From a virus, in the UHGV virus genome UHGV-0283685: 10,034 bases of DNA. One strand, given 5' to 3'. The notes below the pieces were generated by a model. It ran no database searches and was not told the DNA's origin. It saw nothing but the letters and a program-made list of their open reading frames with translations. A program made the position numbers and the translations under genes. Shown here in pieces: positions 181 to 10,034 of the stretch; positions within the stretch are counted from its first letter, which is position 1, and each line of letters begins with the position of its first letter.

Positions 181-2832
181 TTACACTCCTGATACTTCAA
201 TAGATAGTTGAATCTTATTTGGCATCTTGTTGCTTAAATATATGGTTGCAAAGTCAAACGAAATATTTAAGTTATTTTCATCACCATCATTATCTGAAAG
301 AACTCCGGTTTTCAATACAACATTTTGCTTATTAATTTCTTTTAAAGGAGAAAAATCAATTGCCTCACCACGATGAATAAGAACACCAACTGCAACTACC
401 CCATGAATATCAAGTATGTCGTGCATATCAAGGCGAACACATGGGACGTATCCACCAACAAGGATACTTGTAGATTTGTTGGCTTCAAGTGTTATTAGAT
501 ATTTTCCGTCTGGTTGAACTATTGTTCCTGCTATTCCATCTGGCGTGTTGAACATACCGCAGTATCTGTATCCTGCTCCAACAGGAACAATTCTGTTACC
601 GCCAAGATCATGGAAATTTCGAACAATTATTGCACCAGGAACTGATGAATAAACCATTACTGCCTCTGTTTGCCCTGATACAGAGTCTGATGTTTCTGGG
701 TTCGCCATGCATAAATTACCACCAAAATAAATATTTTGGATTAGAGGGGTGAGGCCATCATTAACCTCAAAACGTAAAAAGCCCTTGAGAACAGTCCTTG
801 CGGTATTATTCTTAATAACAACAGGAAGTTCTTTATAGTAAGAGTTTCTGTCTGTCTGTGCCAGAGTTGTTTCAATAAAAACAAAAGGTCTGTGATTACG
901 TTGAGTTGCATTCACAGGTTTGTACCTCAAGTTGTATGGCAAAGACATCTCAGTAAAACCATCAATATAATTACAGTTCTGAATCGTGAACCCACCACCA
1001 CTATATCTTACAAAAAAAGGAGCCGGTCCGCTAAATCCCCTGGCGTTCATTCCATCATACACTTCATTTAATCCGCGTATTACACCAGCATAATACAAAT
1101 TGACTGAATTGCCGCCTGTAAAAGTTGTTTCGTATGATGGGCCGTGTCCACCGCAACATGAATTTCTTGTATCGCCATCAGGGAAAAATTTAACTCCATC
1201 ATATGCAGTTCCACCACCCATCATCGTTGGATTTATAATGTTATTATACAGTGATACCATTTGAGTCCCGCTTACATCAAGCCCCCTCCTGCAAGCAAAT
1301 GCTATCATATCCACGACTGTGCAATAGCTGCTATTGTATATTTCAACACCATAACCAGTGCCGTTTGTTAAATCATATGCACGGTTTGAGTATTCAATAT
1401 ATGGCTCTATTATTTTCGTTCTGTAGCATGACTCAAGAAAAATTCCAGTTTCTGAAAAGCCGATTAGTTTTATTCCTTCTATATGCATATCAACAGCGCC
1501 ATCTATCACAAGACCACGGAACCCCAAATCACCAGGAGATGCGTTCTGCGTGACAGGTCTTTCAAAATTGAAATCACCGACAATTCTGCCGTAGCATGGT
1601 TTTCTTTTATATATATTTGCCTTTCTTGTGATTTTAAACACGTCTCCAACAGATGGTTTAAACGGGAATGGTCCCTGAGCATATTCAAATTTTGCTGTTT
1701 TAGTGTCGTAATCCCAATGAGTTATGTATCTTGATATTCCGGCGTTAGCTCCGGTGACACCTGTTACTTTTACCTGATTGTATTGTTTTGTTAATGTTGC
1801 ATCATTACCAAATGAGAATTCACCTCCGGATACAGATGCTGTTACGGTCGTTGAGTAATCATTGCTCGCAGAGTAGAAAAAATAAAATGCACCTGATATC
1901 TCCGCTTTTTTTGTTGCATTATCAAAAGCAGTAACAACATGCATTTCACCTTCACAAGCCTGTCCTCTATTATCTGTCTGAATTAAGCGATTGCCATGAA
2001 TCATAATTATATCGCCTGCATCAACAGAATATGCTGAGTTAATTGATATTGATGTGTCACCAGGATTTATTGTTGAATTATAGTCAATTGGCGTGGCATC
2101 TCCACCTTCGAGTCTTATGAAATAATCATCAATCCAGTTTGGACCAAGAGGCTCTTTTGCGGTTGACTTTAAGACAACCTTGCCATCAGCTACCCAGTCA
2201 TAGTTATAATTATCCCCGCCGCATTTTATGCGGCTAATCAAATACACACCAGAATCCCACTTCAGGCGTTTTCTGTTAGATGCGCAGTAAATGATGGCAT
2301 TTGTTATTGCGTATGTATCGTCAGTAATGCCATCCCCTTTTGCACCAAAATCGCGAACATTTACATGGTCATCAAGTTTATCCTGTAGCGTCCTTTGTGT
2401 TGCTCCGTCTACTTCTTCTGGAAGACCGTACTTATAATTTATAATTGATGGAGTTGAACCATTGTTAAACTTATTCTCTAGTTCTTGTTTAAACTGATCA
2501 GGATCATATTTCAGAATGTTTGGAAAATAGAACTGCTGCGCCCCATAAGCATCGTAAACAGCCATAGAATGGCCTTGCACGGTTACGAATTTGGCAATCT
2601 GTCCGTTATATACCGGATATCCAGCAGCGTTAATGATGATTGGTTGCGAAACAGGAACGTGAGAACCGTCTTCGTTCTCCACATAAACCTGAATCTGGTT
2701 TTCAGGATTTACCGGGTCAGTGTCAATTTTTCCGATATAAATTTTGCCATTGGCTACGGCTTTAAAAGAACGAGCCATAGTGAAGAGTTGCGAAGGCATC
2801 GATACGATCACATTGGCTGTAATGTCTGTCAT
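181..2832 (-). CDS. Tailspike protein: P22 gp9-like N-terminal head-binding domain fused to a long, different receptor-binding region (883 aa)
   Basis: N-terminus [11 protein letters not shown]...[37 protein letters not shown]...[15 protein letters not shown]...LKYDPDQ closely matches the recalled P22 tailspike N-terminal domain; the remaining ~770 aa does not resemble P22 gp9. ATG at 2830-2832 with GGAG 8 nt upstream; stop TAA at 181-183. Confidence 0.9.
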
Positions 2833-2964
2833 TTAATTTGCTCCAGATACAAGGAATCACCGAAGCATGGCTACGGTTGATGTTTGTTGCATACCGAAAT
2901 GGTACGATTGTTGATTTGTACAGTAGGTTTTACGATGCCATTCCACCCATTTGGTGAGGCATTG

Positions 2965-3222
2965 ATGATGTACAGCAAATACGATGAGGCGCAGTTCCAC
3001 TTGAGGCTTACGCACGAGTTGCACGCTAAGATTAAGCAGCGTGCAAAAATGAATAACAGGTCTATCAATTCCGAAATTGTGGCTACGATGGAAGAATCAC
3101 TCTCCAAACCATCACCTGTAAGCGGGTATCGTGATGAAGAAGAGAGGTTGGCCTCATTAATCTCGGAGCGAGTAAAAGAAGTTGCGGCTGATATCCTTAG
3201 AAAAGAAAAAACCCGCGATTAA
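2965..3222 (+). CDS. mnt: Mnt-like ribbon-helix-helix repressor, second paralog (85 aa)
   Basis: FHLRLTHELHAKIKQRAKMNNRSINSEIVATMEESLSKPSPVSGYRDEEERLA aligns along most of its length with recalled P22 Mnt (…NGRSMNSELLQIVQDALSKPSPVTGYRNDAERLA…). Start moved from the track's TTG at 2884 to ATG 2965, which has GGTGAGG 5 nt upstream and gives an N-terminus of Mnt-like length. Stop TAA 3220-3222. Confidence 0.75.
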   Translation: MMYSKYDEAQFHLRLTHELHAKIKQRAKMNNRSINSEIVATMEESLSKPSPVSGYRDEEERLASLISERVKEVAADILRKEKTRD

Positions 3223-3230
3223 GCGGGTTT
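3211..3230. terminator. Bidirectional intrinsic terminator between convergent genes
   Basis: GC stem CCCGC (3212-3216) / GCGGG (3223-3227) with loop GATTAA, flanked by AAAAGAAAAA upstream and TTT downstream. The U-tract is stronger for minus-strand transcripts. Sits between the Mnt-like stop (3222) and the 73-aa ORF stop (3237). Confidence 0.6.
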
Positions 3231-3236
3231 AGTTGG

Positions 3237-3458
3237 TTAGTTATCAAAAAGTCCGTACGTTTCTTCTTCTTCAGGTGTAAGGGGAAGAATCTCTACTCTA
3301 TCTATAGATATCTTTTCAATGTACCCATGAGGTCTACTTAAAATTAAAGCTCTCTCATGCCACAGAACTCCAAGAATGTGATACCTTCCAGCATCGCCTT
3401 TTACCCTGGCTCTTCCTTTGATTCTTGGCGGCATAATGCCATATTTTTTCTTTGCCAT
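3237..3458 (-). CDS. Hypothetical basic protein (73 aa), translationally coupled to the upstream gene
   Basis: ATG at 3456-3458 overlaps the upstream stop as TAATG. N-terminus is Lys/Arg-rich (MAKKKYGIMPPRIKGRARVKG). No own SD within normal spacing. No family recognised. Confidence 0.5.
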   Translation of the reverse strand: MAKKKYGIMPPRIKGRARVKGDAGRYHILGVLWHERALILSRPHGYIEKISIDRVEILPLTPEEEETYGLFDN

Positions 3459-4186
3459 TATGCAACATTACTCCCATGAATCAGGTGTTGTAGTGCTTTA
3501 ACACCTTCCTCATTGTAGCGGAATGCTTCCACCTGTTTGCTGGAATGCGCAGATTTATCCAGGAAGAACTTCCCGTACTGCTCAGTTTTGAGGTTGTTTG
3601 CGTTAGCAATGCGACCAATCTTGTTGGCCGTTACTCCAAGCTGCTCTGCAACCTCCCCTGCTGAGTAGTAATGCTCTTCTATTGCTGGAAGAGGTATTGC
3701 ATTAAAACCAACGATCGGGTTGATTATGCTTGCTGCCGCAGTCTGCTTTGCTTCCGGCGCAAGATTTGGCATCAAATCGAACAGATTGGTAACAGCTTCA
3801 ACCGTCATTTTCAATGTTCGCGCCTGGCGATACTCAACAAGTCCACTAGACGATTTACCGCTTTTAATGTGCGCTTCTTGCATACTTTCAAGTTGGTCTA
3901 CAAGTGAGCGGCGAACAGCTTTAGATTCACGAGCAGCCACTCGAAGGGCTTGCTTAATTGACATAACAACTTTTTCAGAAGTTGTCTTGTTTGATTTTTG
4001 AACTACGAAAATTTCGTAGTGCTCACCTTCAAGTTCATCCTTAATGCGTGCAATAAAGTCGTTATTGCGGACTTCTTTTTCCCCGCACTGTCTACGAGCA
4101 TGATTGACCATCTCTAACAGGTACTGGCTATCAATGGTTTTATCCGTGACAACGGATCCGATGTTTGCTACATTCTTAAAAGTCAT
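3458..4186 (-). CDS. Phage antirepressor/regulatory-like protein with C-terminal KilA-C/ORF6C-type HTH-like segment (243 aa)
   Basis: C-terminal YSAGEVAEQLGVTANKIGRIANANNLKTEQYGKFFLDKS...GVKAL has the look of the DNA-binding C-terminal domain of phage antirepressors. Start set at ATG 4184-4186 (AAGGAA 6 nt upstream) rather than the track's GTG at 4237, which lies inside a terminator hairpin. Confidence 0.65.
   Translation of the reverse strand: MTFKNVANIGSVVTDKTIDSQYLLEMVNHARRQCGEKEVRNNDFIARIKDELEGEHYEIFVVQKSNKTTSEKVVMSIKQALRVAARESKAVRRSLVDQLESMQEAHIKSGKSSSGLVEYRQARTLKMTVEAVTNLFDLMPNLAPEAKQTAAASIINPIVGFNAIPLPAIEEHYYSAGEVAEQLGVTANKIGRIANANNLKTEQYGKFFLDKSAHSSKQVEAFRYNEEGVKALQHLIHGSNVA
4146..4174 (+). 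promoter_or_regulatory. Candidate antisense promoter (sar-like copy 2)
   Basis: -35 GTGACA (4146-4151), 17-bp spacer, extended -10 TGcTACATT (4166-4174), located just inside the start of the minus-strand gene at 4186. The motif TTTGCTACATT nearly matches TTTGCTACAAT at 4885-4895. Confidence 0.35.
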
Positions 4187-4255
4187 TAGGCATTCCTTAT
4201 GTGGTAGTAAGGGTGTGACATAGGCCGCCAGCAGCACACTGGCGGTTTTCTTTTT
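4181..4255 (+). ncRNA. Candidate sar-like antisense RNA 2 (about 75 nt), complementary to the RBS and start codon of the antirepressor-like gene at 3458-4186
   Basis: Predicted start about 7 nt after the -10. Ends at a strong plus-strand intrinsic terminator: stem 4224-4231 / 4239-4245 (7 bp), loop CAGCACA, then TTTTCTTTTT (4246-4255). On the minus strand the same hairpin lacks a U-tract. Confidence 0.35.
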
Positions 4256-4274
4256 GCGCCGTCCGGCGCACCAA

Positions 4275-4901
4275 TCAATGAATCCATTCCTCGCCGCGCA
4301 GTTTTGCCAGCATTGGCTGAGCGTTCTTTACGACAAAATTGTTGGTATCAAGATTCTTCATTTCACGAAGAAGTGATTTCTTGGTTTCTTCTGACATGTA
4401 GCGAGTCTCATATGCAATATCGTAAATCCTTCCTGAAAGCTCAGAACCAATTTGCTTCATTCCTGGGTAGATGTGTTTGCACATTTGTTGACTCTTCTCC
4501 ATCCACAATTGTAAGTAGCAGAGATTAACCAGTTCTTCGTCAGTAAACTGTTTTGCAATCGGTGAGCATTCTGCCTGCCGATCCAAAATATCCAGCACCC
4601 AGCGGCGGAACTCTTTGGCTACCTGAGTGCGAGCAAACATCGCGATTAGGTGGGCACCGCGTAGTGAGAAAACACGCACTTTTTTACGATAATTTCCTGA
4701 GGTACTCACTTCGAGTACCTGAGTCATTCCGGCGCTAAACTCATCGCTATACTTGTTATAAATCATTGTTACTGCACGACTATTTGCGTATTTAAGTGCA
4801 GATGCAATATTAGATGATGTAAACCAAACACCATGCATATCACGGGTGGGCACCAATTCAACTCCGTGGAAGTTGTAATCTGATTTTGCTACAATATTCA
4901 T
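4275..4901 (-). CDS. ant: Antirepressor with Bro-N domain (Ant-like, 208 aa)
   Basis: YNFHGVELVPTRDMHGVWFTSSNIASALKYANSRA...LIAMFARTQVAKEFRRWVLDIL fits the Bro-N fold pattern. It sits directly downstream of arc, as ant does in P22. Start set at ATG 4899-4901 (AAGGAA 6 nt upstream) rather than the track's 4985, which overlaps arc. Confidence 0.75.
   Translation of the reverse strand: MNIVAKSDYNFHGVELVPTRDMHGVWFTSSNIASALKYANSRAVTMIYNKYSDEFSAGMTQVLEVSTSGNYRKKVRVFSLRGAHLIAMFARTQVAKEFRRWVLDILDRQAECSPIAKQFTDEELVNLCYLQLWMEKSQQMCKHIYPGMKQIGSELSGRIYDIAYETRYMSEETKKSLLREMKNLDTNNFVVKNAQPMLAKLRGEEWIH
4887..4895 (+). promoter_or_regulatory. Candidate Psar-like antisense promoter (extended -10)
   Basis: TGcTACAAT (4887-4895) on the plus strand, immediately next to the ant start codon (4899-4901). 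No convincing -35. Confidence 0.35.
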
Positions 4902-4976
4902 GTTAGTTTCCTTGCATACGGTTACTGACATAGAGGCCCGGTTTGTGTTCACGCACTGCCGGGCTTCACTATTTTT
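4902..4976 (+). ncRNA. sar: Candidate Sar-like antisense RNA (about 75 nt), complementary to the ant RBS and the arc-ant intercistronic region
   Basis: Position and orientation match what is known for P22 sar (a small antisense RNA of about 68-69 nt from the arc-ant intercistronic region). Plus-strand hairpin GGCCCGG (4935-4941) / CCGGGC (4959-4964) followed by TTCACTATTTTT (4965-4976). Confidence 0.4.
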
Positions 4977-5148
4977 ACTGGGCATTAGCTCTTTCCTCTC
5001 TCAGGCTTTTAGCCAGTCGCTGCACAATCGCAGAGTTGATAGAAATTCCATCCATTTCAGCAACACGTCTAATCTCCTCCTTCATTCGCGCTGGCAAACG
5101 AAGCTGGAAACTTTGACTTTTACGACCTGTGTAAAGCACATCTTTCAT
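4975..5148 (-). CDS. arc: Arc-like ribbon-helix-helix repressor (57 aa)
   Basis: SFQLRLPARMKEEIRRVAEMDGISINSAIVQRLAKSLREE aligns with recalled P22 Arc (QFNLRWPREVLDLVRKVAEENGRSVNSEIYQRVMESFKKE). Start set at ATG 5146-5148 (GGGAGAA about 6 nt upstream) rather than the track's GTG at 5161-5163. Stop TAA 4975-4977. Confidence 0.8.
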   Translation of the reverse strand: MKDVLYTGRKSQSFQLRLPARMKEEIRRVAEMDGISINSAIVQRLAKSLREERANAQ

Positions 5149-5169
5149 AAGTAATTCTCCCACAATGAT

Positions 5170-5223
5170 ACCAACTTGGTTCTAGAACCAATTTAACACC
5201 ATTTATTTTGATGTCAAGTTGGT
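5170..5223. promoter_or_regulatory. Operator cluster: 16-bp perfect palindrome TTGGTTCTAGAACCAA plus extra TTGGT/ACCAA half-sites
   Basis: Perfect palindrome at 5176-5191. Overlapping palindrome ACCAAcTTGGT at 5170-5180. A further caagTTGGT at 5215-5223 overlaps the -35. All lie between the divergent arc (-) and Mnt-like (+) starts. Confidence 0.55.
5190..5217 (-). promoter_or_regulatory. Candidate Pant-like promoter for arc-ant
   Basis: On the minus strand: perfect -35 TTGACA (plus 5212-5217), 16-bp spacer, -10 TAAATT (plus 5190-5195). Predicted start falls inside the 16-bp palindrome. Confidence 0.5.
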
Positions 5224-5259
5224 GCTATTGTTTAGCGAACATCTTTACGTTGAGGTCAT

Positions 5260-5580
5260 ATGAGCAAGTTCCCTAGTCATGAAATGGATAGGTTCAATAT
5301 CAGGCTTCCTGCAGGAATGCGGGATGCTATAGCTGAACGAGCCAAACGTAACGGCAGATCAATGAACTCAGAGATTGTTCAGATACTGGAAGATGCCTTG
5401 AATGCAGAAAATACACTCGGGGAAATAGCAGATAAAATCAACAGCGTCTCGGTTCCGCTAAATGTTGATGCGCTAGTTCAACTTCAAGCCCAGGTTATCG
5501 CCATGCAAAAAGAAATACAGGAAAAGTTCAGAGAGCAGAACGAAAAGTTGAGAGAACTGCTAAACAAAAAAACCACCTGA
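5260..5580 (+). CDS. mnt: Mnt-like ribbon-helix-helix repressor with C-terminal coiled-coil, divergent from arc (106 aa)
   Basis: RFNIRLPAGMRDAIAERAKRNGRSMNSEIVQILEDAL closely matches the recalled P22 Mnt RHH region (RAEANGRSMNSELLQIVQDAL), and the C-terminus ends KKTT as Mnt does. The C-terminal half is heptad-like (LVQLQAQVIAMQKEIQEKFREQNEKLRELL). ATG 5260 with GAGG 4 nt upstream. Occupies the mnt position opposite arc. Confidence 0.8.
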   Translation: MSKFPSHEMDRFNIRLPAGMRDAIAERAKRNGRSMNSEIVQILEDALNAENTLGEIADKINSVSVPLNVDALVQLQAQVIAMQKEIQEKFREQNEKLRELLNKKTT

Positions 5581-5606
5581 CGGTGGGTTAATTTTTGCCT
5601 TTTTTG
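5572..5606 (+). terminator. Candidate intrinsic terminator after the Mnt-like gene
   Basis: Stem CCACC (5573-5577) / GGTGG (5582-5586), loop TGAC, followed by GTTAATTTTTGCCTTTTTT. The stem is short (5 bp), so this is only moderate. Confidence 0.45.
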
Positions 5607-5678
5607 GACCATATTGACTACTCATAAAATGAGATCAATATTTAATCGCCCAATAACGGGTGCATGTTGAGGTATATC

Positions 5679-5858
5679 ATGGCGAAAAAACCAGGTGAAA
5701 ACACAGGAAAAAACGGCGGAATATACCAAGAAGTTGGCCCGCGCGGAGGTAAGAAAGACAATTTTGCCACCGTCAAGGACAACGAAAGGCTTCCGCCAAC
5801 AACAAAGCCAGGTCATGGCTGGGTATTAGATAAGCGAACTCCAGACAGCAAAAAGTAA
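5679..5858 (+). CDS. Small hypothetical protein (59 aa), possibly YjzC-like
   Basis: ATG 5679 with GAGG 6 nt upstream (the track's 5664 start lacks an SD). MAKKPGENTGKNGGIYQEVGPRGGKKDNFATVKDNERLPPTTKPGHGWVLDKRTPDSKK is Gly/Lys/Pro-rich. The pattern KPGE..G.NGGIYQEVG...G...LPPT...G..W resembles the small YjzC-like proteins as I remember them. Candidate promoter upstream: TTGACT at 5614-5619. Confidence 0.55.
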   Translation: MAKKPGENTGKNGGIYQEVGPRGGKKDNFATVKDNERLPPTTKPGHGWVLDKRTPDSKK

Positions 5859-5864
5859 TAATCA

Positions 5865-5886
5865 AGCCGGGTCACTCCGGCTTTTT
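5865..5886. terminator. Bidirectional intrinsic terminator between convergent genes
   Basis: Stem GCCGG (5866-5870) / CCGGC (5877-5881), loop GTCACT, then TTTTT (5882-5886). An A-rich run on the other side (5851-5865) serves the minus strand. Overlaps the stop (5872-5874) of the 121-aa gene. Confidence 0.5.
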
Positions 5887-6237
5887 GATATGTCGCTCGC
5901 AGAACTCAACAAGCCTGCTCATTAAGTAGCAGTAAGTCTCGTTGGCTCTTCCTGGTTCAACATCAACGCCGACCCTTGAGCAGATATCGAATGCCATGTG
6001 AGCGCACTCATGGGCAATAGTAGATAGTTTACCATTGAACACACCTATCACATGCAAAACACCATTCTCGCTGCTCATTGTATGAGACGCTCCGTTGGCA
6101 TCCGAGTCCTGCACGTCCACGCCAAGTTTTTGATGCAGGCGTTGCCATTCTGGAAAGTCTCTGCAAAACACAATTGTACCGCTCTCAAAGAGCGGAACGA
6201 GCATTTTTGGTACGTTTCCAATGTTAACTTTTTTCAT
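5872..6237 (-). CDS. Hypothetical protein with HExxH zincin-like motif (121 aa), possibly a minimal metallopeptidase
   Basis: Uninterrupted 122-codon frame with ordinary coding composition. ATG 6235-6237 with AGGA 4 nt upstream. Contains STIAHECAHMAFDI, with several Glu residues 14-30 aa downstream that could supply a third zinc ligand. No family assignment possible without a search. Confidence 0.6.
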   Translation of the reverse strand: MKKVNIGNVPKMLVPLFESGTIVFCRDFPEWQRLHQKLGVDVQDSDANGASHTMSSENGVLHVIGVFNGKLSTIAHECAHMAFDICSRVGVDVEPGRANETYCYLMSRLVEFCERHIKKPE

Positions 6238-6267
6238 GGTATCCTGCTCAAAACTAAGGAGGTTGGT

Positions 6268-6495
6268 GTGAAGCGATGGTTCCTCATAATTACTGTTTTC
6301 GCGATCATTTACACTATTTTCCCTGCATTAAAAGCACCAATGCAAATAATTTCACTAGCAATAATTTCGATTAGTGCTTTCATTGCAGTAGCCGTACTTG
6401 TGTTTAAGGTTTTAAAGTTTTTAGTTTGGCTATCAAAAGATGATGGATGCAAAGTTCATCAAGAAAAAGAAGGCAAAATAACCAAAGTTGACTAA
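6268..6495 (+). CDS. Small hydrophobic protein with two predicted TM helices (75 aa), GTG start
   Basis: Strong SD AAGGAGG (6256-6262) 5 nt before GTG 6268. Two hydrophobic segments (WFLIITVFAIIYTIF and MQIISLAIISISAFIAVAVLVFKVLKFLVWL) then a charged tail. AT-rich. Its stop overlaps the gp16-like stop on the other strand by 3 nt. The track's N-terminal extension to 6052 is antisense to the 121-aa gene and was rejected. Confidence 0.5.
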   Translation: MKRWFLIITVFAIIYTIFPALKAPMQIISLAIISISAFIAVAVLVFKVLKFLVWLSKDDGCKVHQEKEGKITKVD

Positions 6496-8615
6496 CTGTC
6501 ACTAGCGAGCCATGTAATAATCCCCGTGCGGGCAATGGTTTTTGCTTCATCTGTTGATAAGGTTTTCTCCCATCTCTTAAATGCCCCAGATTGCATCAGT
6601 TTCCTTTCTATTGCGCGTCTCACTTCTGCTCTGTCTACTGGTGCGTTTTGCAGGCGAAATAGCATTGATTTAAACTCAGGAGAAGATAGCAGAGCATCAG
6701 CAGCCTTTATCCTGCTTGTTTTCCCTGACATCAATGCAGACGTTATCACCCCTGTTGCACCTACACCAGGGAGACCAGATAAGCTTGTAATACCTTCCGC
6801 CGCAGCAGCTTTTGAGGCTATTCCATAAATTTTTGCGAGACTACCCTTTTCTTTCAGAAAGTTATTAACTTGCTGATCCACAAGACTACTAGCATACTGC
6901 TTACCAGTATTGAGTCTATTCATAGCCTTAGCTGCTTGATAAATCGTATCAAGGCGCTTTGATGCATCTGTGCCAATAGCATCACGGAGAGCCTTCATAT
7001 TGGCCCCATTGCGTGACATTCCGTTATACCATTTTACAAATCCATCAACTCCTAATTGCTGACCAGGTGATTTGGCATAGCTGGTAAATGCTTTATTCAT
7101 TGAGGTGAGCGCAACTTCCTGCCGCATATCCTTTGGAATCGACTTCATTAATTGCCTAAAGTCGCCACCGTTTCCTTTTGCCATATTAACAACAGCACTT
7201 TCAACTTTTGGAATTGCTGATTGCTGAAGTTTTCTACCCAAGACGGTTACAGCATCATCTTCAATGGATTTTCGTTTTTTTACCAACTCCTTACCAAGCG
7301 TCCATAATTCCCCTGCGCCATATTTTTCTGCGACAGCCTGTTGGTCATCTGTTATGGCTGCATATAACTTTTTAAGAACACCTGTTTCTTCATCCTTGAA
7401 TGGACCAGAGCCTTTGCCAATAGCTTGTCCAACCTGCTTTCTAGCGAGATCTAAACGCCCATACGTTGGCAAGGTGTTTGGATCAAGTCGGTTCAATGTC
7501 CGCTTCATTATTGGAGATAATTCATCAATTCCACCTATGTCATCAGCAAAATCCTCTAAAAAATTCAATGTATTAGTTGCCTCAATCCGGTCTCTTACAG
7601 GAACCTTTTCGGCAATTTTGTTGTAGATGTTATCTGACTGATTTTGTAATGATGAAATGGTTTTATCAAAATTATCTGCAAGCCTGTCAGAAACCAGTTG
7701 CTTATCAAGGCTTCCCCCAAATGAAGTTATCATTTCATCAGCTTTTCTTCCTAATTCAGTAATAAAACGCTTATGCGCCTCACTAATCTCTGTTCCAGGG
7801 AGACTTGCCACTGCATTATCAAGAGCCCTGACAGCAGGATTATTAGAGATCATGCCTGGAGTGGCATAATTTTCCAGTTCTAGCTCACGAATAGCATTTA
7901 TCGCGTTAAAATCAGGATTAACTTCATCGGCGAAATCTTGAATAGCTCGTTGCCCGCCGATAAATTTATTGTCCATTGCGCCAGCAGCTTTCTTTAACGT
8001 TGCTTTAGATGATTTACTACCCATCCCTACGGATGAGCGATAAATATCTCCGGCACTATTTTTAATTTTTCCTGCAATCTTCCCAAGCGCTGGACCAACA
8101 ATCTCGGCTACAGGGCCAGCCACAGCGCCAATAGCAGCGCCGGAAGCAACATCGCTATTTGTTCCATTGGCTACAATAGCCCCTTCTCCAGCACCAAGCC
8201 CTGCGGCGGCAGCCAGCCTTGCCGCCCCTTTCGGAACCTGAGAAATAATCCCACCACCACTAACAAATGGCGCTGCTTGTCCAACGAACTCACCAACATC
8301 TTGTGCGGTTGATGGTTTTGCCGCTAACTTCTGCTGTAGAGACTGAATTGCGGCTTGCTCTTCTGGTGTCATGTCCTGAAACAGGCCAACACCTTTACCA
8401 ACATCCATCAATCCACTGAGAACGCCATACATAAAACGGTCGAAGCCGTTAGCATTATTAACAACATTTTCCTGTCTGGAATTTTCCTCTAGTGAAACCA
8501 AAGGAGATTGCTGCTGTTCTGGTTGTGCATCAAGCACAAAGCCATCAGGAAGCTGTGAGTTATCAGGCTGATTATCGAGAACAAATCCTTCGGGTAAACC
8601 TACATCGGTTGCCAT
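6492..8615 (-). CDS. DNA-ejection (injection) protein, P22 gp16-like (707 aa)
   Basis: Last of three consecutive late-operon genes just before the immI-like region, in the same order as P22 genes 7-20-16. ATG 8613-8615 with AGGAA 6 nt upstream, overlapping the upstream gene's stop by 16 nt. Gly/Ala-rich segments and an N-terminal tandem repeat. Assignment rests on synteny and size, not a verified alignment. Confidence 0.7.
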
Positions 8616-9943
8616 TGTCCGTTCCTATAAATGAGTTTCTGACCAGTTTTAGGGTTCGTTGCCGTCGCGCCTTCTGATATCCCACTTGGCGCAGCTTTTG
8701 TCTGCCCATTACCACCTTGTGGTGTAGGCTGCGCTGGGACATCGTCAAATAGCTTGGCCTTCCTTCTCCCTAAGCTTTTTTTCAGCCCTTGAGGAATAGT
8801 ATCTCCATACGTATCCAGATATTCGTCTACCTGCTGGTTAAACTGCTGCCCCATAGCGTTGGCGTTAATTTTGGCTGCGTTAACAATGTTATCCCTCGCT
8901 TCCTGTGACAAGCCATTCCCTGCATTAAGCTGGTCTACATATCCTTTTATCTGCCCCCATATGCCATCAGAGCGCATGACCTGAACCTGTTCACCTTCGC
9001 GAACAACTGACTGAGGGTCGAGAGACTTCATGTAATTAAAGATAATCCCAAGTTGGGCAGCGCCAGTATTTACCTTGCTAAGGGCTTGCAGAGAGTTTGC
9101 CGCCGCTCTGACAGAGTTATAATTTTTGCCAAAATTGGTAATATCAGAATTTAATCCCTTAATTAAGTCTGCTGACGGCTTACCTTTTTGCCCCAGCTCC
9201 ATTAGCTTCAATCCCATCTCATCTGAGTGCATTTGTGCCCGCTGAGCCCTGTCTAGTTGAGCATTTTGGATATTTGCCCATCCTCTCGCGTTCTCCATGT
9301 CAGCCTGACGGATGCTTTCATCCAATCGCCCTTTCTCAAGTTGGCGACCAACCATCTTATCCTGATAATCCAGCATTTTATCCGGACCAACAGCCCCTAG
9401 CGTCATAGTAGTCAGCATGTGTGATAGCTGCTCTGGATTCTGAATACCTGTCTGAATCATCCAGTCAGCATTAGCACCAACGCGATTTAACCTGTCCTTG
9501 TTGTCAGTAATGAATTTACTGTAGGCTTCCGGCCCCTGAGAAAGAGCGACGTTAGCCCTCATGGCTAAATCGCCCATATCGTTGCGTTGCTGATCATTAA
9601 GACCGGAAAACGCCTGTTGTGCCTGTGCAACAAACGCTGGATTTTCCTGGGCAAACTTAAATAGTCCCGATGGATCACCAGAAGCCCATGCATCAGCGTG
9701 AACCTTATTGAACGCACTAATAGCTTTCTGTTGCTGTTCCTGATTGTAAATATCAGCAACTCCAGCCAGACCACGTAACGCGGTCAGACCAACGTTATTT
9801 GCACCTGAGCGAGCCAGTTCATTGTTTTCGCGGATCAGACCAAGCGTTGCGTTAATGTCGCTTGCCTTTGGCGCATTCTCATTTTGCGCACCAATGCCAG
9901 CCAGAAAACCACCAGAATTAATACCCTGTTGCCACGTAGCCAT
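8600..9943 (-). CDS. DNA-ejection protein, P22 gp20-like (447 aa)
   Basis: Middle gene of the three-gene set (P22 gp20 is about 471 aa). Start set at ATG 9941-9943, 4 nt after the upstream gene's TAA, rather than the track's GTG at 9955, which lies inside the upstream gene. Gln/Asn/Ala-rich. Assignment by synteny and size. Confidence 0.7.
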
Positions 9944-9947
9944 TGAT

Positions 9948-10034
9948 TTACCCACGTCCAGTTAAAGTGTAAGCCAGCGCCTTATCCATTAATCCCCGAG
10001 CAATTTCGTGGATCGTTGGCGCAACTCCTACCTC
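9948..10034 (-). CDS. C-terminal fragment of the upstream late gene (gp7-like position), 28 codons plus stop
   Basis: Minus-strand frame is open from the window edge to TAA at 9948-9950 (…[28 protein letters not shown]), immediately followed by the gp20-like start. Identity inferred from position only. Confidence 0.4.

What the first reader, a model, noticed from the sequence alone, without database searches (positions are those of the whole stretch)
5872..6237. 121-aa protein with a zincin-like HExxH motif next to the RHH repressor genes
STIAHECAHMAFDI has the hydrophobic-x-HExxH-hydrophobic pattern of zinc metallopeptidases, with Glu residues downstream that could act as a third ligand. At 121 aa it is shorter than typical ImmA/IrrE or SprT-like proteins. 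Such peptidases are known to cleave cognate repressors in other mobile elements, so a minimal protease beside Mnt/Arc-type repressors would be a plausible extra induction switch. The motif could also be coincidental.
Basis: inference. Interest (0 to 1): 0.6.

Follow-up and report, generated by a model that had tools for sequence, protein, structure and literature searches.

The report
Conserved mini zinc-protease-like phage gene hkcC
The 121-residue protein is the known but uncharacterised phage gene hkcC, and its HExxH motif is the invariant core of a large unannotated phage family that looks like a very small zinc hydrolase but is not tied to the neighbouring repressor genes.

Summary
Window 5872-6237 (minus strand) is a real gene under purifying selection. 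It is hkcC of phages P22 and HK620, which the literature lists as of unknown function. The window is a P22-like prophage "ant moron"; the stretch compared, 5600-6500, is identical to E. coli 55989.

HExxH (residues 76-80) is not a coincidence. In 129 relatives with 19% mean column identity, the only invariant residues are G49, H76, E77, H80 and E100. The pattern HExxH-x19-NE...Y has the spacing and the Asn of thermolysin's HExxH-x19-NExxSD.

A confident AlphaFold model (pLDDT 93.8) shows strand, helix, beta-hairpin, HExxH helix, then a helix that starts at E100. Coevolution places N99 and T101 against A79, F83 and C86.

The repressor-cleavage idea is not supported. Only 3 of 31 family sub-clusters have an RHH gene nearby. 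HK620 keeps hkcC without mnt, arc or ant. Members also occur in virulent T7-like and N4-like phages, and most temperate-phage members sit between the lysis genes and the small terminase gene.

Best reading: a minimal gluzincin-like accessory metallohydrolase whose target is unknown.

The parts
5872..6237 (-). hkcC coding sequence (121 aa), member of PHROG 1365
   Evidence: ORF list. The region is 98% identical to P22 DNA. hkcC is named in HK620 and UAB_Phi20. PHROG 1365, E=1.4e-39. Purifying selection.
5998..6012 (-). Codons for H76-E77-C78-A79-H80 (HExxH): proposed two metal ligands and the catalytic base
   Evidence: Invariant in 129 relatives. Lies on predicted helix 71-88. Only HExxH in the six frames of the window.
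5926..5943 (-). Codons for N99-E100-T101-Y102-C103-Y104: proposed third ligand E100 with second-shell N99 and Y104
   Evidence: E100 is invariant in the 129-sequence alignment. In a 124-sequence alignment N99 is 75%, Y104 96% and C103 81% conserved. The spacing H76 to E100 is +24, as in thermolysin H142 to E166. Coevolution links N99 to A79/F83 and T101 to F83/C86.
6091..6093 (-). Codon for invariant G49 at the start of the beta-hairpin that precedes the HExxH helix
   Evidence: Invariant. Strand 49-56 in the model. The neighbouring S51 coevolves with M81/D84/I85 of the HExxH helix.
6242..6245 (-). AGGA Shine-Dalgarno-like element, 4 nt before the hkcC ATG
   Evidence: Read directly from the sequence.
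5864..5883 (.). GC-rich stem-loop shared by the convergent hkcC and orf59a genes; the hkcC stop codon lies in its loop. Terminator of the mnt/orf59a transcript on the + strand
   Evidence: Terminator scan. Homologous P22 feature 't mnt'. HK620 feature 'bidirectional terminator tORF59A'.
5679..5858 (+). orf59a/hkcD (59 aa, PHROG 3202, weak YjzC-like): convergent neighbour that travels with the closest hkcC subfamily
   Evidence: The same convergent pair, 14-20 bp apart, is seen in five divergent hkcC sub-clusters.
6207..6237 (+). Promoter of the divergent membrane-protein gene (equivalent of P22 PsieA), embedded in the first 10 codons of hkcC
   Evidence: Inferred by homology only: the P22-pbi annotation places PsieA at L001 4603-4633, which maps to window 6207-6237 within the 98%-identical block.
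6268..6495 (+). 75-aa protein gene in the sieA slot (GTG start after AAGGAGG), divergent from hkcC; the sequence has two long hydrophobic stretches
   Evidence: Sequence. PHROG 7294, E=1e-47, unknown function.
6492..8615 (-). Gene 16-type DNA-transfer (ejection) protein: the late-operon gene directly upstream of hkcC on the same strand
   Evidence: PHROG 6704/770. Synteny with P22 and HK620. No terminator-like site was found on the minus strand between 6492 and 6237.

Best explanation
The ORF is hkcC, a dispensable accessory gene in the 'ant moron' of a P22-like prophage. It encodes a soluble protein of about 120 residues belonging to a large phage family (PHROG 1365). The conserved core of that family is a mononuclear metal site of the thermolysin (gluzincin) type. 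H76 and H80 on one helix and E100 at the start of the next helix would bind Zn2+. E77 would act as the general base. N99 and Y104 would orient the histidines. The G49 beta-hairpin would form the upper rim of a substrate groove. The protein most likely acts as a minimal metallohydrolase, probably a peptidase. In this prophage it lies in the late-operon orientation, so late-promoter read-through from gene 16 would transcribe it. Its substrate is not the adjacent RHH repressors. The distribution of the family points instead to a host protein or a competing-phage protein, that is, a host-takeover or counter-defence accessory function. That distribution includes lysis-terminase junctions of temperate phages, early small-gene clusters of N4-like phages, and T7-like virulent phages.

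Shown here: gene reality, family size, invariant residues, predicted secondary structure, coevolving contacts and genomic contexts. Inferred: metal binding, catalysis, timing of expression and target class.
For: Identity and reality: the region is 98% identical to P22. hkcC is named in HK620 and UAB_Phi20 and described as of unknown function. There are 25 synonymous-only against 3 replacement variable codons.

Family: 551 clusters at 50% identity with E<=1e-3, nearly all 100-140 aa. All 129 sampled members hit PHROG 1365.

Active-site signature: the invariant columns are G49, H76, E77, H80 and E100. The H-to-E spacing is +24 in 108 of 170 sequences, and +22 to +23 in the virulent-phage members. 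The query aligns without gaps to thermolysin and neutral protease across HExxH and NE, weakly (E=0.1-0.7). Thermolysin uses H142ExxH-aa19-E166, with Asn165-His146 and Asp170-His142 hydrogen bonds (PMC3268031). Here N99 is 75% and Y104 (E+4) 96% conserved.

Structure: AF2 pLDDT 93.8 and pTM 0.87, with all five models agreeing. Element order is strand, helix 28-37, hairpin 49-66, helix 71-88, helix 100-116; from general knowledge this matches the zincin N-terminal subdomain plus a glutamate helix. DCA gave 15 of the top 60 couplings between the two long helices, antiparallel, with N99-A79/F83, T101-F83/C86 and S51-M81/D84/I85.

Weak profile hits to solved structures are almost all zincins (7 of 8). 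Two collinear segments match myroilysin.

Context: the family is independent of RHH genes. It is present in virulent phages. It sits next to terS of three different PHROG families, 2-3 nt upstream in several loci. [quoted passage not shown]
Against: No curated family matches: Pfam, NCBIfam and PADLOC gave nothing above threshold. SprT-like matches cover only the 16-20-residue HExxH helix.

PDB profile searches with alignments A2 and A4 found no zincin.

Model coordinates could not be inspected, so the His-His-Glu geometry is unverified. The coevolution register (i+j about 183) puts E100 roughly one helical turn beyond H80 rather than between the two histidines.

The protein lacks the C-terminal subdomain that forms the lower half of the cleft in larger zincins. 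There are no expression data, metal data or activity data. The inferred target class rests on genomic position alone.
Confidence: 0.55

Rival explanations
1. One reading: HkcC is a minimal ImmA-like protease that cleaves the neighbouring Mnt/Arc-type RHH repressors and so provides an extra induction switch for the immI region.
For: Three RHH genes and two antirepressor genes lie within 3 kb of hkcC in the window. The closest hkcC sub-cluster usually has RHH genes in its flanks (71 of 83 loci).
Against: 28 of 31 family sub-clusters have no RHH gene within the fetched flanks, and where one is present it is more than 1.7 kb away at variable positions. HK620 retains hkcC and hkcD with only remnants of mnt and ant. 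Members occur in virulent T7-like and N4-like phages. There is no match to Peptidase_M78/ImmA in the query or in 129 relatives. From general knowledge, known ImmA/IrrE substrates are XRE-type HTH repressors, not RHH proteins.
Confidence: 0.04
2. The conserved His/Glu cluster binds a metal for a purpose other than peptide hydrolysis. It could be a structural zinc site in a small adaptor or inhibitor protein, or a different hydrolytic chemistry; the zincin-like RNase YbeY (from general knowledge) shows such folds are not always peptidases.
For: No zincin peptidase family or fold is recovered at significant scores. The protein is very small and lacks a lower cleft domain. Some relatives give weak hits to a non-peptidase HExxH family, the aKG-HExxH hydroxylase TIGR04267 (13 of 129).
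Against: E77, the catalytic-base position, is as invariant as the ligands, which a purely structural site would not require. The second-shell Asn and the spacing copy the thermolysin catalytic site. Most weak PDB hits are peptidases.
Confidence: 0.2
3. HkcC-family proteins are SprT/Wss1-like DNA-associated proteases that remove proteins from phage DNA, for example ahead of the packaging motor.
For: 33 of 129 members give weak SprT-like Pfam hits (best E=1e-4). Most temperate-phage members lie directly upstream of terS, some 2-3 nt away. Several long members carry a C-terminal acidic plus Lys/Arg-rich tail that could bind DNA, for example mEp021_49, P0065, P0068 and P0116.
Against: The SprT matches are 16-20 residues on the HExxH helix and are far below the gathering score. 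There is no third His or zinc ribbon. hkcC itself has no basic tail and is not next to terminase genes. In N4-like phages and in Kurepalu-1 the gene lies in early or middle gene clusters. hkcC is missing from P22-like phages that package normally, since the ant moron is absent in Sf6 and APSE (PMC2629481).
Confidence: 0.1
4. hkcC and the convergent orf59a/hkcD form a two-gene module, such as enzyme plus substrate, inhibitor or antidote, with an exclusion or addiction-type function in the lysogen.
For: The same convergent pair, 14-20 bp apart and sharing a stem-loop, recurs in five hkcC sub-clusters. These span about 40-100% identity and different phage types, including a Klebsiella siphovirus prophage where the pair sits between tail genes.
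Against: 26 of 31 family sub-clusters have no Orf59a-like neighbour. In 11 of 80 near-identical hkcC loci, orf59a is replaced just beyond the terminator by an unrelated sequence. In P22 the two genes are on opposite strands and orf59a belongs to the mnt transcript, so co-expression is not evident. There are no PADLOC hits.
Confidence: 0.1

Closest known systems
Thermolysin-type gluzincins (MEROPS M4; HExxH-x19-NExxSD)
   Same: HExxH followed after exactly 19 residues by N-E. Asn sits at E-1, the residue that hydrogen-bonds His146 in thermolysin. A conserved polar residue sits at E+4. The layout is helix-loop-helix. There is a gapless but weak phmmer alignment across both motifs.
Minigluzincins (proabylysin, projannalysin, selecase; soluble archaeal zincins of about 100-110 aa, related to M48/M56)
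   Same: Size class, single domain, HExxH plus a Glu on a following 'glutamate helix', and a small sheet plus backing helix before the active-site helix. Their properties are taken from general knowledge; the family is named in PMC4559962 and PMC5557861.
ImmA/IrrE metalloproteases (Pfam Peptidase_M78, formerly DUF955; COG2856)
   Same: Small HExxH...E proteases of phages and mobile elements that act in regulatory switches.
   Different: No Pfam match in the query or in 129 relatives. ImmA partners are adjacent XRE-type HTH repressors, whereas here the neighbours are RHH proteins and the linkage is not conserved. The family also occurs in virulent phages.
SprT-like / Wss1 / Spartan zincins (Pfam PF10263)
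   Same: A compact HExxH domain. It is the most frequent weak Pfam hit among relatives (33 of 129). Basic C-terminal tails occur in some relatives.
   Different: Hits are 16-20 residues, at most 14.9 bits among the ten relatives inspected individually (best E-value 1e-4 among all 129), against a gathering score of 25.6. The third ligand there is His, with an extra zinc ribbon in bacterial SprT (general knowledge), and neither is present here. hhalign against E. coli YggI/SprT did not align the motif.
Astacin-like metzincins, including myroilysin (M12)
   Same: Weak collinear profile matches cover the N-terminal 'WP..VPLYGG' strand plus helix, and the hairpin plus HExxH helix.
   Different: No HExxHxxGxxH third His and no sign of a Met-turn. 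E-values are 0.03-0.3. Other sub-profiles of the family give no such hits.

Membership tests
hkcC of P22/HK620 (PHROG 1365) | Sequence identity to the named gene and a full-length profile match | tested here: met
   The DNA is 98% identical to P22. The HK620 and UAB_Phi20 records name the 121-aa ORF hkcC. PHROG 1365 E=1.4e-39 over residues 1-121. All 129 relatives hit the same PHROG.
Zincin / gluzincin metallopeptidases | HExxH on an alpha-helix, conserved across the family | tested here: met
   H76, E77 and H80 are invariant in 129 sequences. They lie inside predicted helix 71-88, where pLDDT is about 98.
Zincin / gluzincin metallopeptidases | Third ligand Glu on the next helix, roughly 18-28 or more residues downstream | tested here: met
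   Met at the sequence level only. E100 is invariant, with spacing +22 to +24, and opens helix 100-116. The spacing matches thermolysin H142ExxH-aa19-E166.
Zincin / gluzincin metallopeptidases | Three-dimensional convergence of the His, His and Glu side chains on one metal position | not testable with these tools
   Model coordinates are not returned. Coevolution places N99 and T101 against A79, F83 and C86, which is compatible with the site but does not prove it.
Zincin / gluzincin metallopeptidases | Significant fold similarity to solved zincins | tested here: not met
Zincin / gluzincin metallopeptidases | Zinc binding and peptidase activity | not testable with these tools
   This requires biochemistry.
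ImmA/IrrE (Peptidase_M78, DUF955) | Match to the family profile | tested here: not met
   No PF06114 hit for the query at E<=10. It is not among the 25 families most often matched by the 129 relatives at E<=1.
ImmA/IrrE (Peptidase_M78, DUF955) | Conserved adjacency to its cognate repressor gene | tested here: not met
   RHH genes lie within the flanks in only 3 of 31 sub-clusters. HK620 has hkcC without functional mnt, arc or ant.
SprT-like (PF10263) | Profile match at or above the gathering score of 25.6 bits | tested here: not met
   Best E-value 1e-4 across the 129 relatives. The matches inspected individually score 12.7-14.9 bits and cover only 16-20 residues. The query itself has no hit.
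Thermolysin family M4 | HExxH-x19-NExxSD motif within a two-domain enzyme of about 300 aa | tested here: not met
   The x19 spacing and the N-E are shared, but S-D is replaced by C-Y and the protein has 121 aa. phmmer E=0.1 only. No Pfam M4 hit.
Metzincins (astacin/myroilysin) | HExxHxxGxxH third histidine and a Met-turn | tested here: not met
   The family consensus after the second His is xxFxILxxVGV, with no Gly or His at +3/+6. Profile hits are weak, E 0.03-0.3.
Known anti-phage defence system components (PADLOC) | Match to any PADLOC model | tested here: not met
   No hit for HkcC, four relatives, Orf59a or the 75-aa protein.

The most novel reading that the evidence does not exclude
PHROG 1365 (HkcC) would be a previously unrecognised family of the smallest phage-encoded gluzincin proteases. 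On this reading it is a mobile counter-defence or host-takeover enzyme that cleaves a conserved proteobacterial protein. It would be carried as a moron by temperate phages, at lysis-terminase junctions and in the P22 ant moron, and as an early or accessory gene by N4-like and T7-like virulent phages. In the hkcC subfamily the convergent Orf59a could be its partner or regulator.
Probability: 0.25. Interest if true: 0.7.

Novelty: new variant of a known kind. Interest (0 to 1): 0.45.

Why it matters
hkcC sits in one of the most studied regions of a model phage, the P22 immI / ant moron, yet it has no assigned function and is not even annotated in the reference P22 records. This work shows it belongs to a family of at least 551 clusters at 50% identity. 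The family is spread over temperate and virulent phages of Proteobacteria and is present in 314 of 5426 complete E. coli genomes. Its only invariant residues form a thermolysin-like metal site. If it is active, it would be among the smallest zincin scaffolds known and a phage enzyme that no annotation pipeline tested here recognises. It would also be directly testable with P22 genetics using E77A or H76A alleles. The result also removes a tempting but unsupported link to RHH repressor cleavage.

Tried and rejected
- Pfam, NCBIfam and PADLOC scans of the query and of 129 relatives gave nothing above threshold.
- Foldseek against the PDB found no hit at E<=0.001.
- The AFDB50 library was not available.
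- hhalign of the family profile against E. coli YggI/SprT as a single sequence was uninformative: 4.6% probability, and the motif was not aligned.
- I tried to build an astacin/myroilysin profile from a 58-aa fragment, but the homologue search returned only short fragments, so it was abandoned.
- PDB profile searches with the A2 and A4 sub-alignments found no zincin, so I treat the hits from A3 and A5 as weak.
The A2 scan returned only near-identical P22-like loci. The single genome-contig scan gave only 7 loci.
- Pfam scans of the longer family members looking for fused domains found none.
- The P22 small-RNA paper has no data on this region.
- A literature search for phage HExxH anti-defence proteases found nothing relevant.
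- The 'GNAT family acetyltransferase' label on this ORF in phage 34 has no support in any profile search and is rejected.
- The overlapping 147-aa + strand ORF 6052-6495 is rejected as a gene. Only its 3' part, from GTG 6268 after a strong AAGGAGG, is conserved.

Full report
**1. What is at the coordinates.**
The window is the region between the ejection-protein genes and the tailspike gene of a P22-like prophage. In order it holds:
- tailspike, 181-2832 (-)
- RHH gene, 2884-3222 (+)
- 73-aa ORF, 3237-3458 (-)
- antirepressor, 3458-4237 (-)
- Ant (Bro-N plus P22_AR_C domains), 4275-4985 (-)
- Arc-like gene, 4975-5163 (-)
- Mnt-like gene, 5260-5580 (+)
- orf59a, 5679-5858 (+)
- the 121-aa ORF, 5872-6237 (-)
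- a 75-aa protein gene, 6268-6495 (+)
- gene 16, 6492-8615 (-)
- gene 20, 8600-9955 (-)

Positions 5600-6500 are 100% identical to the E. coli 55989 chromosome. Related sequence is present in 314 of 5426 complete E. coli genomes, where PGAP calls the product 'hypothetical protein'. Positions 5605-6270 are 98% identical to phage P22.

The ORF is the gene called hkcC in HK620 and in later P22-type annotations. It is left unannotated in the P22-pbi, BK000583 and NC_002371 records, which show only 't mnt' and 'P sieA' there. [quoted passage not shown]

**2.
HECAH is residues 76-80 (window 6012-5998). It is the only HExxH in six frames of the window, and the chance expectation for all real proteins here is about 0.04.

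The gene is under purifying selection. Among 37 alleles, 25 variable codons are synonymous only and 3 change the amino acid.

An exhaustive profile search found 551 clusters at 50% identity with E<=1e-3, and 152 with E<=1e-10. Nearly all are single-domain proteins of 100-140 aa. In an alignment of 129 of them (mean column identity 19%), the only invariant columns are G49, H76, E77, H80 and E100. G90, Y104 and L105 are at least 90% conserved (per-column table).

The H-to-E spacing is +24 in 108 of 170 sequences. It is +22 to +23 in members from virulent phages.

**3. How zincin-like is it?**
In favour:
- The pattern HExxH-x19-N-E-x-x-x-Y reproduces the thermolysin signature H142ExxH-aa19-E166. 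In thermolysin Asn165 hydrogen-bonds His146 and Asp170 (E+4) hydrogen-bonds His142 (PMC3268031). Here N99 is 75% conserved and Y104 (E+4) 96% conserved.
- phmmer against PDB sequences aligns the query without gaps to neutral protease and thermolysin across both motifs, but only at E=0.1-0.7.
- The 129-sequence profile gives 8 PDB hits below E=10. Seven are zincins (tolloid/BMP1 astacins, myroilysin, peptidyl-Lys metalloendopeptidase), aligned over the hairpin plus the HExxH helix.
- A sub-profile aligns the N-terminal 'KWP..VPLYGG..' strand and helix to the N-terminus of mature myroilysin at E=0.03-0.05, collinear with the other segment.
- AlphaFold2 with the deep alignment gives pLDDT 93.8 and pTM 0.87, and all five models agree. 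The elements are strands 11-13 and 21-25, helix 28-37, hairpin 49-56/59-66, helix 71-88 (HExxH) and helix 100-116, which starts at E100. From general knowledge this is the order of elements in the zincin N-terminal subdomain followed by a 'glutamate helix'.
- A mean-field DCA that I ran on 268 family sequences (Neff 176) recovers this topology. Fifteen of the top 60 couplings link the two long helices in antiparallel register (mean i+j = 183). N99 couples to A79 and F83. T101 couples to F83, C86 and F17. S51, two residues after the invariant G49, couples to M81, D84 and I85. This puts E100 about one turn from H80 on the neighbouring helix, which is compatible with a His-His-Glu site.

Against:
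- No Pfam, NCBIfam or PADLOC model matches the query.
- Among relatives, the commonest Pfam hit is SprT-like (33 of 129, best E=1e-4). These matches cover only 16-20 residues of the HExxH helix and score at most 14.9 bits among the ten relatives inspected individually, against a cutoff of 25.6 bits.
- Foldseek against the PDB finds nothing.
- Two other sub-profiles give no zincin hit in the PDB.

My reading: a thermolysin-type metal site is likely (about 0.7). Peptidase activity is plausible (about 0.5). Membership in any named peptidase family is not established.

**4. Context argues against repressor cleavage.**
I fetched 235 related loci from IMG/VR and clustered the family members they and the other session loci encode at 80% identity, which gave 31 sub-clusters.

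RHH (Arc/Mnt-like) genes occur within the flanks in only three sub-clusters. Where present, they lie more than 1.7 kb away at variable positions. HK620 keeps hkcC and the orf59a homologue although mnt and ant are reduced to remnants.

About half of the sub-clusters place the gene between the lysis cassette (endolysin, Rz) and the terminase genes. Neighbours were confirmed as terS of PHROGs 606, 51 and 1482, with terL downstream of three of them. In several loci the family gene ends 2-3 nt before terS (L166, L169, L087, L170).

P22-like phages ST64T, ST104, epsilon34 and L carry a 129-aa paralogue at that junction (38% identical; Orf-129, epsilon34 gene 70). mEp021 has a 194-aa version there.

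Members also occur in virulent phages:
- Ralstonia RSB3 ORF49, after the lysis genes.
- Pseudomonas Kurepalu-1 gene 34, between the DNA ligase and RNA polymerase genes.
- N4-like Klebsiella phages such as KP8 gp065, inside the cluster of small genes divergent from the terminase genes. From general knowledge this is the early host-takeover region.

A protein found with and without lysogeny modules, at different positions in the transcription programme, is best viewed as a self-contained accessory enzyme acting on a host or foreign target, not on the phage's own RHH repressors.

**5. Expression in this prophage (inferred).**
hkcC is on the late-operon strand directly downstream of gene 16. No terminator-like site lies between them. 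[quoted passage not shown] An AGGA lies 4 nt before the ATG.

By homology with the P22 annotation, the promoter of the divergent membrane-protein gene (PsieA equivalent) overlaps the first ten hkcC codons (6207-6237). The hkcC stop codon lies in the loop of the stem-loop 5864-5883 that terminates the mnt-orf59a transcript. Whether hkcC is also expressed from the prophage is unknown.

**6. Mechanism I commit to, and rivals.**
Most likely (0.55): a minimal gluzincin-like metallohydrolase. H76, H80 and E100 bind zinc, E77 is the base, and N99 and Y104 are the second shell. It acts as an accessory host-takeover or counter-defence factor on an unidentified protein.

Rivals:
- A metal site used for non-peptidase or structural purposes (0.2).
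- A SprT/Wss1-like DNA-associated protease. This is suggested by terS adjacency and by acidic plus Lys/Arg-rich C-terminal tails in some long members, but it is contradicted by the early-region members and the weakness of the SprT similarity (0.1).
- A functional pair with Orf59a (0.1).

**7. Novelty and score.**
The ORF itself is known. Its family (PHROG 1365) is catalogued as 'unknown function'. No profile library or paper I could search recognises it as a metalloenzyme.

I rate it a new variant of a known kind: a very small, phage-specific, thermolysin-motif family within the zincin world. It is of moderate interest. The family is widespread, sits in a model phage and is easy to test. However, it has no demonstrated activity or phenotype, and its fold assignment is unconfirmed.

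Noticed in passing
window 5679-5858 (+) with stem-loop 5864-5883; also L003 6380-6565, L004 6384-6563, L181 4383-4562, L205-L213: orf59a/hkcD (59 aa, PHROG 3202, weak YjzC-like Pfam hit) lies convergent to hkcC, 14-20 bp away, sharing a bidirectional terminator. The pair recurs in five hkcC sub-clusters that have diverged to about 40% identity, including a Klebsiella siphovirus prophage where it sits between tail genes. In 11 of 80 near-identical hkcC loci, orf59a is swapped just past the terminator for an unrelated sequence.
   Followed up: partly
window 6268-6495 (+): A 75-aa protein with two long hydrophobic stretches (PHROG 7294, unknown function) occupies the slot of the P22 superinfection-exclusion gene sieA. 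It uses the same AAGGAGG-GTG start region and, by homology, the same promoter as P22 sieA, but is otherwise unrelated and much shorter. It could be an alternative exclusion protein.
   Followed up: partly
window 2884-5580: The immI-type region is doubled. It has three Arc/Mnt-type RHH genes (2884-3222 +, 4975-5163 -, 5260-5580 +) and two different antirepressor genes (4275-4985, Bro-N plus P22_AR_C; 3458-4237, PHROG 1726), followed by a 73-aa ORF (3237-3458, PHROG 4977). The Arc-like and Ant ORFs overlap by 11 nt as called, so a P22-style sar antisense RNA interval is not obvious.
   Followed up: no
L163 3995-4384 (phage ST160); L241 3501-3890 (epsilon34 gene 70); L242 4001-4585 (mEp021_49): Many P22-like phages carry a second, 38%-identical paralogue of hkcC (Orf-129) between the lysis genes and terS, so some genomes have two family members. 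mEp021-type versions add an acidic plus Lys/Arg-rich C-terminal tail ending in ...VPRVMSFKRG.
   Followed up: partly
L002 1930-2295 (Salmonella phage 34, KR296688.1): This record labels the hkcC ORF 'GNAT family acetyltransferase' and gene 16 'DNA helicase'. No profile search supports either name; they look like annotation errors.
   Followed up: yes
window residues C25, C78, C86, C103 of HkcC (5872-6237 -): Four cysteines are invariant in the close hkcC subfamily, one of them inside the HExxH motif (HECAH). C103 is 81% conserved family-wide. This could be a second metal site, a redox switch or a cysteine switch. The subfamily also ends in a conserved KKP[EA] tail.
   Followed up: no
window 181-2832 (-): The 883-aa tailspike has a P22-type N-terminal head-binding domain (first ~120 residues match many tailspike PHROGs). 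Its receptor-binding part belongs to PHROG 14558, and it is much longer than the 667-aa P22 tailspike. This is an example of tailspike domain swapping.
   Followed up: no
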